Assembly: GCA_964016885.1 (NCBI GenBank)
Contig: OZ024740.1
Span: forward strand, 176,948,001 to 177,012,000
Direction of reading: 5' to 3'
Source: Eledone cirrhosa
Lineage: Eukaryota
Length of the DNA: 64,000 nt
Position numbers and translations under genes: made by a program. Shown in pieces: positions 14,301 through 62,332 of the stretch. The first letter of the stretch is position 1; each line of letters begins with the position of its first letter. Below the pieces are notes generated by a model. The model was not told the origin of the DNA. It worked only from the letters and a program-made list of their open reading frames with translations, and searched no databases.

Positions 14301-14891
14301 TACACCCAATTGCATCTCTCTCTCCACCACCGGACCTTGTTACCCGGAGATTTACCCATTTGCATTGTCGAGGTTTCCAAACGACCTAAAGATATTTACT
14401 TATTGTTCCACAATGCTTCAAGCAAACTTCAATACTCTCATATATATATATATATATACACATATATATATACATATATACATACATATATATATACGCA
14501 TACATACATAATTGCATTTAAGTAAGTGCCGTACTAAGAGTGAGAAATGAAATTTCGTTTCATTCTATTCCATTTATCGTTTTCGGTGTAAAACGAGCAT
14601 TATAATAAATGTTCGGTAAACCGATACGTGCATATATATATATGTGTGCATTTATGTATATATATACATACTACTGTACGTCTGTATACATATATGTATG
14701 TACGTATACATACATACATACTTACAATTAAGTAAGTGCCGTACTAAGAGTGAGAAATAAAATTTTGTTTTATTCTATTCCATTTATCGTTTTCGGTGTG
14801 CCAGGCCGACTGAACTAACTCGACATGCAAATTAGGCTGCTCAGCCGTAAATATGCATAAAGAAAGTATATACTTTCAGACGTTCAACCAT

Positions 14892-14960
14892 CTGGCAGGA
14901 AGGTATACGATGCTGACGATAGCTAATAAGCTTGAAACTAGTACATCGTTCCTGTGTCAG
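14892..14960 (+). ncRNA. Type I hammerhead ribozyme
   Basis: acgatg-CTGACGA-tagc taataa gctt-GAAA-ctag-TA-catcgt; stem I extends caggaa/ttcctg; palindromic stem III actagt. Confidence 0.85.
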
Positions 14961-15330
14961 TGTTGAACAAAAAGGTGACGTGGTTGCCTAAACACTGTAC
15001 GGCGTAGTTCGGGCTGTTTGTTTGTTTGCAAACAAACAAACCGAGCATTTTAATAAATGTTCGGTAAACCGATACGTGCATATATATATGTGTGCATGTA
15101 TTTATATATATACATACTACTGTACGTCTATATACATATATGTATGTACGTATATATACTTACATTTAAGTAAGTGCCGTACTAAGAGTGAGAAATGAAA
15201 TTTCGTTTCATTCTATTCCATTTATCGTTTTTGGGTGTGCCCGGCCGACTGAACTTACTCGATATGCAAATTAGGCTGCTCAGCCGTTAATATGCATAAA
15301 GAAAGTATATACTTTCAGACGTTCAACCAT

Positions 15331-15399
15331 CTGGCAGGAAGGTATACAATGCTGACGATTGCTAATAAGCTTGAAACTAGTACATCGTTCATGTGTCAG
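15331..15399 (+). ncRNA. Type I hammerhead ribozyme, second copy with stem mismatches
   Basis: acaatg-CTGACGA-ttgctaataagctt-GAAA-ctag-TA-catcgt. Confidence 0.75.
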
Positions 15400-57407: not shown

Positions 57408-58452
57408 TATATATATATATATATATATATATATATATATATATATATATATATATATATATATATATATACATATATATATATATATATATACACATGA
57501 ATAATCTATCCTGACTCATTTACTCATACACACGCACGTGCATGTGTTGTGCGGACATTTTGTGTACGTGTGTGTGTGTGTGTGATCGTGAGTGAGTATG
57601 TGGTTGTGCTCGTGAGACAGATATAGAAAGGGATAGGAAAGAAAACGAGGAAGAGAAAGCAAGTTAGGAACACAGACCATGAGTGGAAGAGGCAGACTAT
57701 ATGTATGCTTAAGTGTTTTTGTGTTAATATGAAAGTGTATGACCGTGTGTCAGTGTGTAATTATACATGTGTGAATGTTTCCGTGGGTGACTGTGTATAA
57801 GTGCGTGAGTTTCAATGAGTGTGTGTTTTTGTGTATGTGCGTTTGTTAGCGTATATGTGTGTATGATTGTTTGGGTGTGAGTGAACATTGTGTGTATGTA
57901 CGAATGTGTGTGTGTGTGTGTGTGTGTGTGTGTGCGTGTGTGTGTGCGTGTGCATGTAAGTGTGTTTGTGTTCGAACAACCACCAGGGTGAGCTGAATTT
58001 AATGACGCCTCGTTTTCGTTTGCCTTCTGCAGGTTGTGTAGTGCGTGTGTACATACTGAAGCTTTGCTTTCACTATAACAGAAGTGGATAGAACGCTGGT
58101 AGCCTTTGCTGGAGAGGTTGTGTGTGATGCTAGAGTGAGAGATAGAGTTAAGTGTAATAGAAAGAAACGTGGATTTAATAGGGTGGAGGAAAAGGGAGGG
58201 GAACTGAGCAGACTTATCTCTTTCTGTCTCTATGTTCAATATATATGTATATATACTTTCTGTTTCAACAGCATTATAGATATGTATATGTATAATATAT
58301 ATATGCGCACGCGTATGTGTATATAAATAGACTTTGCGTTATATATATATATAATGAAAAATTTGAACAGGAACAAAACAGAGAGGCAGTACAACGAATG
58401 TTTATTAATTTCACGCTCTTGAGAGTGGGGTGGTGGTGGGGATATATATATA

Positions 58453-59709
58453 GGCTGCGGACGATATTTGAGGACAGATTTATGGTTTAAAAAAAACGCT
58501 TATATAATAACAGAAAAAAAACTGTATTCTTATAAAAATTGCATAAACACGAAGCTAAATTATCAATTTAATAATTTCATTCAATAAAACCACCATAAGC
58601 ATCAATAACTGCATCTACTGGGGTCGAAATCGTTTACAAGCTCGGATTAAGTGGTCCTTGTTAATATCGGACATGACTCGAATTATGGCGGCTTTCAAAT
58701 AATCTTTGGTGCTATGGGGGTGTTCATTGACATTTTTCTCAACGATGCTCCATACATAGTCCAGTTGATTGAGACCTGGAGAATTAGGAGACCAAATATT
58801 GGGGGTAATGTGATCATGCAAATTGTCAGCCATCTATTCTTGTGTCAATTGAGCCTTGTGTTATGGTGCAGAATCTTGTTGAAAGACATAAGGCCTTCCA
58901 TTGCATACACTGTTGATCCAAGGCTTAACAACTTTATCCAGAACCACTATATGCAGTAGCATTCACCCTAAGGCCTTGTGGAAAAACGTGAGGAGGTATC
59001 ACTTGTCCTTCATTGCTAACAACACCCAAAACCATGACACTTGCAGGAAATTGTGTGTGCATTACTCTTGGAACCTCAGAAGGGTCTGCACATAGCCACC
59101 TGTCATTTCGTCTGTTAGTTTTGTGGTCCTGGTCAACGTTTTTCTCATCTGAGAAAAACCAAATCACACCATCTTCTGATGGATGTTTAAGTTTGTTTAA
59201 AAGTCTTTTTGATCTGATTAAACGCTTTTCTTTTGTTTTTTCTGACATGAATTGACCTCTTCTCATCACGTAAGATTTGCATCTGATATCTTCATGCACA
59301 ATATTTCTGATTGTTTTTTTTTCTGACACACCAAAGTTTTTTTGCAATTGACATCATTGATTTTCCTTGATTGTCATCAATGTTTTGCTTAACTTCCTGA
59401 ATAAATTCAGGTCTCCTGATAGAATCAGAGCGCTTGGAATGTTTTTTACGTTTTGATACAGGCAATACGCTTCCATCTTCTTTCTCTAACTCACGCCGAA
59501 TCTTGTGGACAAAAGATCTTGTAACCTTCAGGAAACGAGATATTTCTAAATCCCCATGCTTAACCTTCAAAGCGACAATGATAGCATGCCTTTTCATTTC
59601 AGTAGTAAGCATAGTTATTTTCATTGTTATTTTCTGAAACGAAGTTCAATAAAAATTAGTCAAATAAAATAATGACTAAAAATACATGTGTCCTTAAATA
59701 CCGTTCGCA
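58453..59709 (-). mobile_element. Tc1/mariner DNA transposon (maT/DD37D-like), decayed transposase ~58565-59624
   Basis: WFFSDEK, NRRNDRW, FPASVMV, FQQDSAP, WSPNSPGLNQLDY; imperfect TIRs tgcggacgatatttgaggaca / tgtccttaaataccgttcgca; TA flanks. A small fragment also lies at 54762-54828. Confidence 0.88.
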
Positions 59710-59780
59710 TATATATATATATATATATATATATATATATATATATATATATATATATATATATATATATATATATATAT

Positions 59781-62332
59781 ATTAGAAATTGGAATAAATG
59801 CTCTGAAATAGCGATATATATGTGAATATAGACATAGAATATTCGAAAATATTCTGTATGTTTATAATAAACATTTTGAAGACCTAATCGCTATAGAATA
59901 GAATACGTCACGTATTACAATTAGATTCTCGATAAAAGCAAGGGAAGTAATCTACGCGTTTCATTCTTGTTAGAATTCATCAGGACTACATATCCAGTGC
60001 TTTTATCGAGAATGACACAGCTAGAGACTTATAGAATACTTAGCTGTGTACAGGAACTGGTTTGAAAGAGCGGTTGCCGGTCCGGCAGAAATTAGAAATT
60101 GGAATAAATGCTCTGAAATAGCGATATATATGTGAATATAGACATAGAATATTCGAAAATATTCTGTATGTTTATAATAAACATTTTGAAGACCTAATCG
60201 CTATAGAATAGAATACGTCACGTATTACAATTAGATTCTCGATAAAAGCAAGGGAAGTAATCTACGCGTTTCATTCTTGTTAGAATTCATCAGGACTACA
60301 TATCCAGTGCTTTTATCGAGAATGACACAGCTAGAGACTTATAGAATACTTAGCTGTGTACAGGAACTGGTTTGAAAGAGCGGTTGCCGGTCCGGCAGAA
60401 ATTAGAAATTGGAATAAATGCTCTGAAATAGCGATATATATGTGAATATAGACATAGAATATTCGAAAATATTCTGTATGTTTATAATAAACATTTTGAA
60501 GACCTAATCGCTATAGAATAGAATACGTCACGTATTACAATTAGATTCTCGATAAAAGCAAGGGAAGTAATCTACGCGTTTCATTCTTGTTAGAATTCAT
60601 CAGGACTACATATCCAGTGCTTTTATCGAGAATGACACAGCTAGAGACTTATAGAATACTTAGCTGTGTACAGGAACTGGTTTGAAAGAGCGGTTGCCGG
60701 TCCGGCAGAAATTAGAAATTGGAATAAATGCTCTGAAATAGCGATATATATGTGAATATAGACATAGAATATTCGAAAATATTCTGTATGTTTATAATAA
60801 ACATTTTGAAGACCTAATCGCTATAGAATAGAATACGTCACGTATTACAATTAGATTCTCGATAAAAGCAAGGGAAGTAATCTACGCGTTTCATTCTTGT
60901 TAGAATTCATCAGGACTACATATCCAGTGCTTTTATCGAGAATGACACAGCTAGAGACTTATAGAATACTTAGCTGTGTACAGGAACTGGTTTGAAAGAG
61001 CGGTTGCCGGTCCGGCAGAAATTAGAAATTGGAATAAATGCTCTGAAATAGCGATATATATGTGAATATAGACATAGAATATTCGAAAATATTCTGTATG
61101 TTTATAATAAACATTTTGAAGACCTAATCGCTATAGAATAGAATACGTCACGTATTACAATTAGATTCTCGATAAAAGCAAGGGAAGTAATCTACGCGTT
61201 TCATTCTTGTTAGAATTCATCAGGACTACATATCCAGTGCTTTTATCGAGAATGACACAGCTAGAGACTTATAGAATACTTAGCTGTGTACAGGAACTGG
61301 TTTGAAAGAGCGGTTGCCGGTCCGGCAGAAATTAGAAATTGGAATAAATGCTCTGAAATAGCGATATATATGTGAATATAGACATAGAATATTCGAAAAT
61401 ATTCTGTATGTTTATAATAAACATTTTGAAGACCTAATCGCTATAGAATAGAATACGTCACGTATTACAATTAGATTCTCGATAAAAGCAAGGGAAGTAA
61501 TCTACGCGTTTCATTCTTGTTAGAATTCATCAGGACTACATATCCAGTGCTTTTATCGAGAATGACACAGCTAGAGACTTATAGAATACTTAGCTGTGTA
61601 CAGGAACTGGTTTGAAAGAGCGGTTGCCGGTCCGGCAGAAATTAGAAATTGGAATAAATGCTCTGAAATAGCGATATATATGTGAATATAGACATAGAAT
61701 ATTCGAAAATATTCTGTATGTTTATAATAAACATTTTGAAGACCTAATCGCTATAGAATAGAATACGTCACGTATTACAATTAGATTCTCGATAAAAGCA
61801 AGGGAAGTAATCTACGCGTTTCATTCTTGTTAGAATTCATCAGGACTACATATCCAGTGCTTTTATCGAGAATGACACAGCTAGAGACTTATAGAATACT
61901 TAGCTGTGTACAGGAACTGGTTTGAAAGAGCGGTTGCCGGTCCGGCAGAAATTAGAAATTGGAATAAATGCTCTGAAATAGCGATATATATGTGAATATA
62001 GACATAGAATATTCGAAAATATTCTGTATGTTTATAATAAACATTTTGAAGACCTAATCGCTATAGAATAGAATACGTCACGTATTACAATTAGATTCTC
62101 GATAAAAGCAAGGGAAGTAATCTACGCGTTTCATTCTTGTTAGAATTCATCAGGACTACATATCCAGTGCTTTTATCGAGAATGACACAGCTAGAGACTT
62201 ATAGAATACTTAGCTGTGTACAGGAACTGGTTTGAAAGAGCGGTTGCCGGTCCGGCAGAAATTAGAAATTGGAATAAATGCTCTGAAATAGCGATATATA
62301 TGTGAATATAGACATAGAATATTCGAAAATAT
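59781..62332 (-). repeat. Tandem array of 8 apparently identical 310-bp HHR monomers plus ~70 bp (retrozyme-like)
   Basis: Unit starts at 59781, 60091, 60401, 60711, 61021, 61331, 61641, 61951, 62261; (TA)n on both sides. Confidence 0.97.
59947..59989 (-). ncRNA. Type I hammerhead ribozyme (repeats every 310 bp; last copy 62117-62159)
   Basis: Minus strand: gtagtc-CTGATGA-attct aaca agaat-GAAA-cgcg-TA-gattac; stem I extended by attctcgataaaagca/tgcttttatcgagaat. Confidence 0.9.

What the first reader, a model, noticed from the sequence alone, without database searches (positions are those of the whole stretch)
14515..62332. At least 7 unrelated HHR-bearing non-coding families plus several PLEs in 64 kb, nearly all in (TA)n
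Seen: HHR motifs at 14892/15331, 26522/51528, 37471/38561, 52041 family, 56872, 57208 and 59947. They share architecture (type I, palindromic stem III: actagt, acggccgt, atatatat, acaattgt, atgcat, acgcgt) but no evident sequence similarity, and they use the same (TA)n target as the young PLE. Known: PLE pLTRs carry minimal HHRs. Inference: a PLE-driven ecosystem of small ribozyme replicons, which may be linked to the genome's heavy TA-microsatellite load.
Basis: partly seen in the sequence, partly recalled or inferred. Interest (0 to 1): 0.8.

Follow-up and report, generated by a model that had tools for sequence, protein, structure and literature searches.

The report
Penelope ends plus ribozyme retrozyme arrays
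This animal genome is crowded with hammerhead-ribozyme repeats at TA microsatellites; some are leftover ends of ordinary Penelope-like retrotransposons and others are small non-coding units of a known kind, and one young family sits in mirror-image arrays that were likely written in one go from a single circular RNA by a Penelope enzyme.

Summary
The motifs are real: 13 strict type I hammerheads against 0.27 in shuffles. The window is not special: 56 evenly placed 10-kb stretches hold 60 (about 100 per Mb, roughly 300,000 per genome). The seven families split. C, D and E are 5'-truncated 3' ends of coding, Hydra-type Penelope-like elements (PLEs): longer copies run into the endonuclease gene (4, 2 and 4 of 30). 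The D copies in the window lack half the ribozyme core. A, B, F and G are closed non-coding units (about 440, 760, 330, 310 bp) never seen joined to an ORF: non-LTR retrozymes, already proposed to ride on PLEs. The addition is family G: at least 1,034 insertions end at one nucleotide before (TA)n; 19 of 21 are head-to-head arrays with the PLE one-sided tail; units match within an array, across both arms (0.3 differences), but differ between arrays (2.9). That favours repeated copying of one monomer, likely a circle, over later local expansion. RNA, cleavage and the helper PLE are untested. A causal link to TA load is not shown.

The parts
11843..11907 (+).
   Evidence: strict hit at 11851; 41 related copies in held DNA
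12028..14439 (+). 5'-truncated PLE (PLE1), RT plus C-terminal GIY-YIG, one in-frame stop near 12502, ends at (TA)n; no canonical hammerhead found in its 3' part
14515..15620 (+). Family A: about 2.5 tandem 439-bp non-coding units, hammerhead cores 14913 and 15352 (retrozyme type)
   Evidence: (4,356 exact 27-mers)
22811..26370 (+). Older, broken copy of the Neptune-like PLE2 (N-terminal piece at 16646-17200 beyond an inserted non-LTR element)
26389..27135 (+). Family B: about 760-bp non-coding unit, hammerhead core 26526 with long helix II, inserted in the (TA)n behind the older PLE2
   Evidence: (265 exact 24-mers)
27848..33010 (.). Young Neptune-like PLE2: inverted 5'-truncated arm 27848-29903 identical to 30899-32954, forward stop-free frame 29884-32442 (852 aa, begins at the junction), tail 32955-33010 on one side only, (TA)n on both sides; hammerhead-like cores 28101 and 32701 with weak stem I
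37426..37572 (-). Family C1: short 3' end of a Hydra-type PLE, hammerhead core 37521
   Evidence: (4,081 exact 16-mers, both variants)
38435..38960 (.). Family C2: head-to-head pair of a C variant, cores 38659 (-) and 38854 (+)
51340..51673 (-). Diverged family B relative, decayed core at 51644
52042..52236 (.). Family D fold-back: extreme 3' end of a Hydra-type PLE, truncated inside helix II, so without the core 5' half; further copies at about 54351-54644, 55920-56118 and 56185-56360
   Evidence: (13,338 exact 30-mers)
56844..57014 (+). Family E: short 3' end of a Hydra-type PLE, hammerhead core 56882
   Evidence: (39 exact 22-mers of this variant)
57059..57404 (-). Family F: about 330-bp non-coding unit, core 57245 with G8 changed in this copy
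   Evidence: (1,214 exact 23-mers)
59783..62330 (-). Family G: single-arm array of 8.2 310-bp units (7 whole units identical), eight canonical hammerheads, (TA)n on both sides

Best explanation
The window shows two products that likely come from one retrotransposition system: truncated 3' ends of coding Penelope-like elements (C, D, E) and closed non-coding hammerhead units (A, B, F, G) that likely borrow a Penelope reverse transcriptase-endonuclease. Shown: family identities, ORF linkage or its absence in the loci examined, fixed 3' ends 60-300 nt downstream of the predicted cleavage site, two alternative ends with the tail on one arm only, head-to-head inversions, (TA)n flanks, and array-wide private haplotypes in G. 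Inferred: tandem transcripts self-cleave (as dimers, given the tiny palindromic helix III) to unit length and are circularised; a PLE protein nicks (TA)n and starts reverse transcription inside the RNA at two sites 26 nt apart (139 and 165 nt after the cleavage site in G), one per DNA strand; on a 310-nt circle it goes round many times and gives two arms of identical units joined head to head; on a 3-4 kb coding RNA it usually stalls early and leaves short 3' ends.
For: ORF linkage: 4 of 30 C, 2 of 30 D, 4 of 30 E loci run colinearly into a PLE endonuclease frame (translations). Closure: A, B and F copies that extend far enough upstream run into their own downstream sequence, and none of 30 each continues into an ORF; the six nearby ORFs are separated by a TA tract. 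G: no ORF in 13 + 21 insertions; 1,034 exact tail-TA junctions; 10 of 13 and 19 of 21 inverted; in all 17 tail-anchored inverted arrays with both ends visible the other end is the short end. Within-array 0.33, cross-arm 0.30, between-array 2.9 differences per unit; 20 haplotypes in 29 arrays; 28 of 248 units differ from their array's commonest unit, mostly as singletons. Circular folding z -6.0 (A), -5.3 (G), -4.4 (G2). Sister G2 (321 bp, 70% identical) keeps a hammerhead at the same place with a U3-A8 core and other stems. The one-sided tail and two internal RT starts are described as PLE-specific (PMC11167929; PMC8557442).
Against: No RNA evidence was obtained and cleavage was not tested; PLE-type hammerheads cleave weakly (PMC4209133), 8 of 9 Xenopus dimers did not cleave (bioRxiv 2026), and anole PLE insertion in vitro did not need cleavage (PMC11167929). 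No autonomous PLE with sequence similarity to A, B, F or G was found in about 1.45 Mb held. L327 carries one variant pair in 3 of 19 units, so local expansion does occur in at least one long array. Thirty loci out of thousands cannot exclude rare ORF-linked copies of A, B or F. D's longer copies mostly carry a C3-A8 mismatched core (7 of 11), so that ribozyme may be inactive.
Confidence: 0.7

Rival explanations
1. All families are solo terminal fragments of ordinary autonomous PLEs; A, B, F and G only lack a sampled long copy.
For: True for C, D and E, where only 2-4 of 30 copies reach the ORF; PMC4209133 reports that most minimal hammerheads are such fragments.
Against: In A, B, F and G the sequence upstream of the ribozyme is the family's own tail, which leaves no room for an ORF in the unit; G forms arrays of over 22 units; longest Met-ORF 28-47 aa in A, G, G2.
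Confidence: 0.07
2. PLE machinery inserts a monomer or dimer, and arrays then grow and homogenise locally by unequal crossing over or conversion (the model favoured in bioRxiv 10.64898/2026.07.22.740005).
For: L327 has a recurring variant pair in 3 of 19 units; homogeneity is the usual mark of concerted evolution; older families A, B and F are mostly one to two units.
Against: Both arms of an inversion are multimeric and share the same private haplotype while singleton changes persist; arrays differ by only about 1%, which leaves little time; junction positions vary within the unit, as 5' truncation would give.
Confidence: 0.1
3. The template is linear RNA: an uncleaved multimeric transcript of a parent array, or a cleaved monomer copied repeatedly by template jumping; no circle is needed.
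For: Hammerhead cleavage was dispensable for PLE insertion in vitro, and a multi-copy mRNA is the proposed substrate (PMC11167929); a homogeneous parent array gives a homogeneous daughter.
Against: New variants become fixed in every unit of an array and nest into a haplotype series, which needs a one-unit bottleneck; no variant recurs at the same rank in both arms; all 248 whole units keep the ribozyme core. Jumping back onto the same monomer cannot be told from a circle with these data.
Confidence: 0.1
4. DNA rolling-circle elements (Helitron-like) or assembly collapse produce the arrays.
For: Such elements also form tandem arrays near microsatellites (recalled; listing only); assemblers can homogenise repeats.
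Against: Two fixed ends 26 nt apart with a one-sided tail and head-to-head inversion are PLE marks, shared with the coding PLE2 in this window; the assembly resolves single-unit variants.
Confidence: 0.03

Closest known systems
Non-LTR retrozymes of animals (PMC7229834; parts 2-4 of 6 read)
   Same: Tandem, AT-rich, non-coding units with one type I hammerhead each; several families per genome (16 in coral); predicted self-paired circles; PLEs named as likely helper; multimeric cDNA from a circle proposed.
   Different: That paper infers PLE help from shared motifs and co-occurrence; the sections read do not describe (TA)n targeting, fixed ends, one-sided tails, inverted arrays or array-private haplotypes. 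Counts there: over 6,000 (coral), about 5,000 (mussel), 126,247 (axolotl), against roughly 300,000 estimated here with another descriptor. B (760 bp) is longer than their 150-450 bp. Circular RNA is shown there and untested here.
[quoted passage not shown]
   Same: Retrozymes as non-autonomous PLE derivatives; units of 51-972 bp; monomers to long arrays.
   Different: Rests on co-occurrence and pLTR similarity in Xenopus and suggests local amplification; here no pLTR similarity was found for A, B, F, G, and array anatomy points to multimer insertion.
Hydra-clade PLEs (PMC8557442, section 11 and passages)
   Same: C-terminal GIY-YIG, CxCX5C linker (E), RW-type motif (C), CxxC and CxH around the C-terminus (C, D), canonical hammerheads, (TA)n insertion, inverted 5'-truncated copies and tail.
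   Different: Only ORF ends or broken ORFs were seen; no tree was built; 3' UTRs of C and D are long (1.1-1.4 kb).
Minimal hammerheads of PLE pLTRs (PMC4209133, parts 1-2 of 4)
   Same: Many unrelated consensus families per genome, mostly single truncated copies, opposite-strand pairs 100-700 bp apart, palindromic helix III, U3-A8 core variant.
   Different: Density here is far higher than the 2,000-9,000 reported per genome.
Non-autonomous Chlamys PLEs such as MRC1 (PMC8557442 and PMC9940879, passages)
   Same: [quoted passage not shown]
   Different: Most Chlamys lack canonical hammerheads and resemble their helpers at the 3' end.

Membership tests
Type I hammerhead ribozyme | CUGANGA and GAAA core, helices I-III, NUH cleavage site | tested here: met
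   A, B, C, E, G, H in the window; F in genomic copies
Type I hammerhead ribozyme | Complete core in family D | tested here: not met
   0 of 7 window halves; 11 longer copies among 102 held 3' halves, 4 with U3-A8 and 7 with a C3-A8 mismatch
Type I hammerhead ribozyme | Self-cleavage | not testable with these tools
   needs in vitro transcription
Non-LTR retrozyme (A, B, F, G) | Closed tandem unit with one type I hammerhead per unit | tested here: met
   G 310, A about 430-440, B about 760, F about 330 bp
Non-LTR retrozyme (A, B, F, G) | No protein coding | tested here: met
   longest Met-ORF 47 aa (A) and 30 aa (G); no attached PLE ORF in 30 loci each of A, B, F or 34 G insertions; B and F units were not scanned for short ORFs
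Non-LTR retrozyme (A, B, F, G) | Highly self-paired predicted circle | tested here: met
   z -6.0 (A) and -5.3 (G), 30 shuffles; B and F monomers were not extracted by the script
Non-LTR retrozyme (A, B, F, G) | Expressed as linear and circular unit-length RNA | not testable with these tools
   no RNA holder listed
EN+ Penelope-like element (C, D, E, PLE1, PLE2) | ORF with RT and C-terminal GIY-YIG upstream of the hammerhead | tested here: met
   E: RT and EN; C and D: EN end only; PLE1 and PLE2
EN+ Penelope-like element (C, D, E, PLE1, PLE2) | Inverted 5'-truncated copy and one-sided tail | tested here: met
   D, PLE2; also G and inversions in 17 of 30 A and 17 of 30 F, but only 1 of 30 B
Hydra clade (C, D, E) | CxCX5C linker, no CCHH, CxxC and CxH motifs, (TA)n target | tested here: inconclusive
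   linker seen in E only; CxxC and CxH in C and D; (TA)n ends in all; DKT not covered
Hydra clade (C, D, E) | Placement in an RT tree | not tested
   no reference set was fetched
Neptune clade (PLE2) | CX2-5CxxC linker before GIY-YIG | tested here: met
   motif at residue 719; no tree built

The most novel reading that the evidence does not exclude
Family G is a still-active animal retrozyme caught in the act: each of more than a thousand dispersed arrays is one Penelope-catalysed event in which both target strands primed rolling-circle reverse transcription on the same 310-nt circular RNA, making kilobase satellite arrays in a single step, in a genome with perhaps the densest hammerhead load reported (about 100 per Mb, at least 26 families).
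Probability: 0.55. Interest if true: 0.7.

Novelty: new member of a known kind. Interest (0 to 1): 0.5.

Why it matters
How animal retrozymes spread, and what hammerheads do in Penelope elements, has been open since 2014-2020; the two published models (rolling-circle cDNA from a circle, or local expansion after a short insertion) were not separated by genomic anatomy in the papers read. Family G separates them on paper, and it supplies a short RNA, two mapped candidate start sites and a target (TA)n for an in vitro test with a purified PLE protein. It would also be a one-step route from a mobile RNA to satellite DNA. The broader picture of many unrelated hammerhead families beside PLEs at (TA)n is known biology.

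Tried and rejected
Rfam scan: the 150 best listed of 250 matches were microsatellite-driven miRNA models and the like, with no hammerhead family among them; 100 weaker rows not seen. DNA search of the own genome with the G unit returned nothing because common words are skipped; exact patterns were used instead, so counts are lower bounds and depend on the variant. One search printed minus-strand loci unoriented and was redone. One search timed out after A-C; E and F were redone, D. Sequencing runs: no RNA holder listed; contigs of four runs were laid: X2 covers unique window sequence, while X1, X3 and X6 hold a closed 340-nt contig of the G unit and little else; any tandem array collapses to such a contig, so this is not counted as evidence of a circle or of expression. 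Search for a helper by similarity: a G-like stretch led to ORF-less sisters (G2; a third in L255), not to a PLE. Rejected: window as hotspot; H as PLE1's own 5' repeat (a short TA run lies between them, and H has 41 copies elsewhere; one, L066, lies 217 nt behind a PLE2-like ORF match without TA and was not resolved). Earlier findings: none. One requested stretch did not exist. Literature searches listed no paper describing inverted, haplotype-private retrozyme arrays; only the held library was searched, and no supplements were seen (the model figure S9 of PMC7229834 and the bioRxiv tables may bear on this).
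Full report
Setting. The window lies on the largest contig of a 3.0-Gb animal assembly. A short repeated element resembles a cephalopod SINE as I recall it; that was not tested and nothing below depends on it.

Observation. A structure-aware scan (core, helices I-III, NUH) finds 13 type I hammerheads in the window against 0.27 on average in 200 shuffles: A 14913, B 26526, C 37521, E 56882, eight of G, and an unlisted H at 11851. The second A copy, two C variants, F (G8 changed in this copy) and the second B copy are recognisable but imperfect. 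Family D has only the 3' half of a hammerhead in all 7 places in the window. The families share no detectable sequence except the two C variants.

The window is typical. In 56 stretches of 10 kb at round-number positions on the large contigs there are 60 strict hits against 3.0 in 20 shuffles: 1.07 per 10 kb (bootstrap 0.70-1.48), about 300,000 (190,000-430,000) per genome. They fall into 24-26 clusters depending on threshold; all DNA then held (320 sequences, 1.5 Mb, enriched for the searched families) gives 362 distinct motifs in 26 clusters of two or more plus 21 singletons. 50 of 60 have (TA)5 within 300 nt downstream, 26 of 60 upstream, and 26% of random positions. Published counts are 2,000-9,000 minimal motifs (PMC4209133), over 6,000 in coral, about 5,000 in mussel and 126,247 in axolotl (PMC7229834); descriptors differ, so the comparison is rough.

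Which families are coding. Thirty loci per family were taken in genome order. C (4,081 exact matches): 4 of 30 continue through a 0.7-1.3 kb UTR into a GIY-YIG frame. D (13,338): 2 of 30 reach an endonuclease end about 1.3 kb upstream; most are fold-backs truncated inside the strong helix II hairpin. E (39 for this variant): 4 of 30 reach an RT-EN frame ending about 200 nt upstream. Motifs fit the Hydra clade as described in PMC8557442, without a tree. These three are ordinary PLE remnants. A (4,356), B (265) and F (1,214) behave otherwise: copies long enough run upstream into their own tail, giving units of about 440, 760 and 330 bp, and none of 30 each continues into an ORF; six nearby ORFs are separated by a TA tract. 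(TA)4 abuts the mapped 3' end in 24, 25 and 14 of 30; the F figure is low partly because the alignment ran on into the TA tract. Inverted 5' copies occur in 17 of 30 A, 17 of 30 F and 1 of 30 B.

Family G. One 30-mer occurs 3,958 times in dispersed arrays, and the exact junction of the tail end with (TA)n 1,034 times. Of 13 arrays found through the ribozyme, 10 are head-to-head with 3' ends outwards; the window's own array is one of three single-armed ones. Of 21 insertions found through the tail junction (every fifth of the first 100 listed, 20 stretches), 19 are inverted, one ran off the stretch and one lacked a second arm; in all 17 inverted ones with both ends visible the other end is a fixed short end 26 nt before the tail end. 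Lengths run from under one to over 22 units. In 29 arrays with at least two whole units (one entry merges two neighbouring insertions), units differ by 0.33 positions within an array, 0.30 across arms (19 arrays) and 2.9 between arrays; there are 20 haplotypes; 28 of 248 units depart from their array's commonest unit; all 248 keep the core. Array-wide variants nest into series and are shared by both arms, other changes are singletons, and one array (L327) repeats a variant pair in 3 of 19 units. The unit folds far better than shuffles. A 321-bp sister, 70% identical, forms the same short tandem and inverted structures and has a different hammerhead with the U3-A8 core at the same place; a third relative has yet another.

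Mechanism. The one-sided tail and inverted truncated copy are PLE marks (PMC8557442), and in vitro the tail corresponds to two internal start sites of reverse transcription (PMC11167929). The coding PLE2 in this window has the same anatomy. So PLE machinery most likely inserted G, A and F, and probably B (inferred). That every unit of both arms carries the same private haplotype means one monomer served as template many times; a circle is the simplest such template (inferred), as proposed in PMC4209133 and PMC7229834. Local expansion, favoured in the 2026 preprint, explains L327 but not readily identical multimeric arms. Re-use of one linear monomer cannot be excluded. Cleavage, circular RNA and the helper were not shown, and published cleavage of such motifs is often weak.

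TA load. 111 of 455 TA tracts in the sample abut a recognised element 3' end, against 34 of 455 control positions: an association with known targeting, a lower bound, and no evidence that the elements make the tracts.

Verdict. Real and abundant, but mostly known: PLE 3' ends and non-LTR retrozymes. The part worth following is the anatomy of the G arrays and the motif density. The searches named under Tried and rejected found no description of such arrays. Papers seen: PMC7229834 parts 2-4 and passages; PMC4209133 parts 1-2; PMC11167929 parts 1-2; PMC8557442 passages and section 11; PMC9940879 passages; the bioRxiv preprint parts 1-3; no supplements.

Noticed in passing
window 17385-22714 (-): Intact two-ORF non-LTR retrotransposon (endonuclease, RT, zf-RVT by Pfam) lying inside the older PLE2 copy, whose N-terminal piece is at 16646-17200.
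   Followed up: partly
L290-L319; L255 2950-3150: Sister families of G keep the body of the unit but carry different hammerheads at the same position (C3-G8 in G and L255, U3-A8 in G2).
   Followed up: partly
family D, e.g. window 52042-52236; L053, L074, L079: Most of about 13,000 copies stop within helix II of the ribozyme and fold back; longer copies mostly have a C3-A8 mismatched core.
   Followed up: partly
window 56944-57014, 52150-52236; L140: Tails of D, E and one further family share a short hairpin-like word pair, a possible protein-binding signal; seen by eye only.
   Followed up: no
short 3' ends of D, E, G and PLE2: The tail-less end falls just before a TA or AT run in the element itself, a possible microhomology to the target; seen by eye only.
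   Followed up: no
L066: One H-family hammerhead lies 217 nt behind a PLE2-like ORF match with no TA between; may be H's coding partner or a nested insertion.
   Followed up: no
window 42530-44500: Long 11-bp minisatellite.
   Followed up: no
window 58400-59700: Multi-copy element with a broken transposase-like frame at 58934-59353, mariner-like by recall; no Pfam hit.
   Followed up: no
window 62786-62842, 37190-37370, 62600-62760: tRNA-like match above the Rfam gathering score and copies of a common SINE-like repeat.
   Followed up: no
runs X1, X3, X6 on window 59792-60150: Three runs of other studies and organism labels hold the G unit as one closed 340-nt contig with little else from the stretch; kind of run unknown.
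   Followed up: partly
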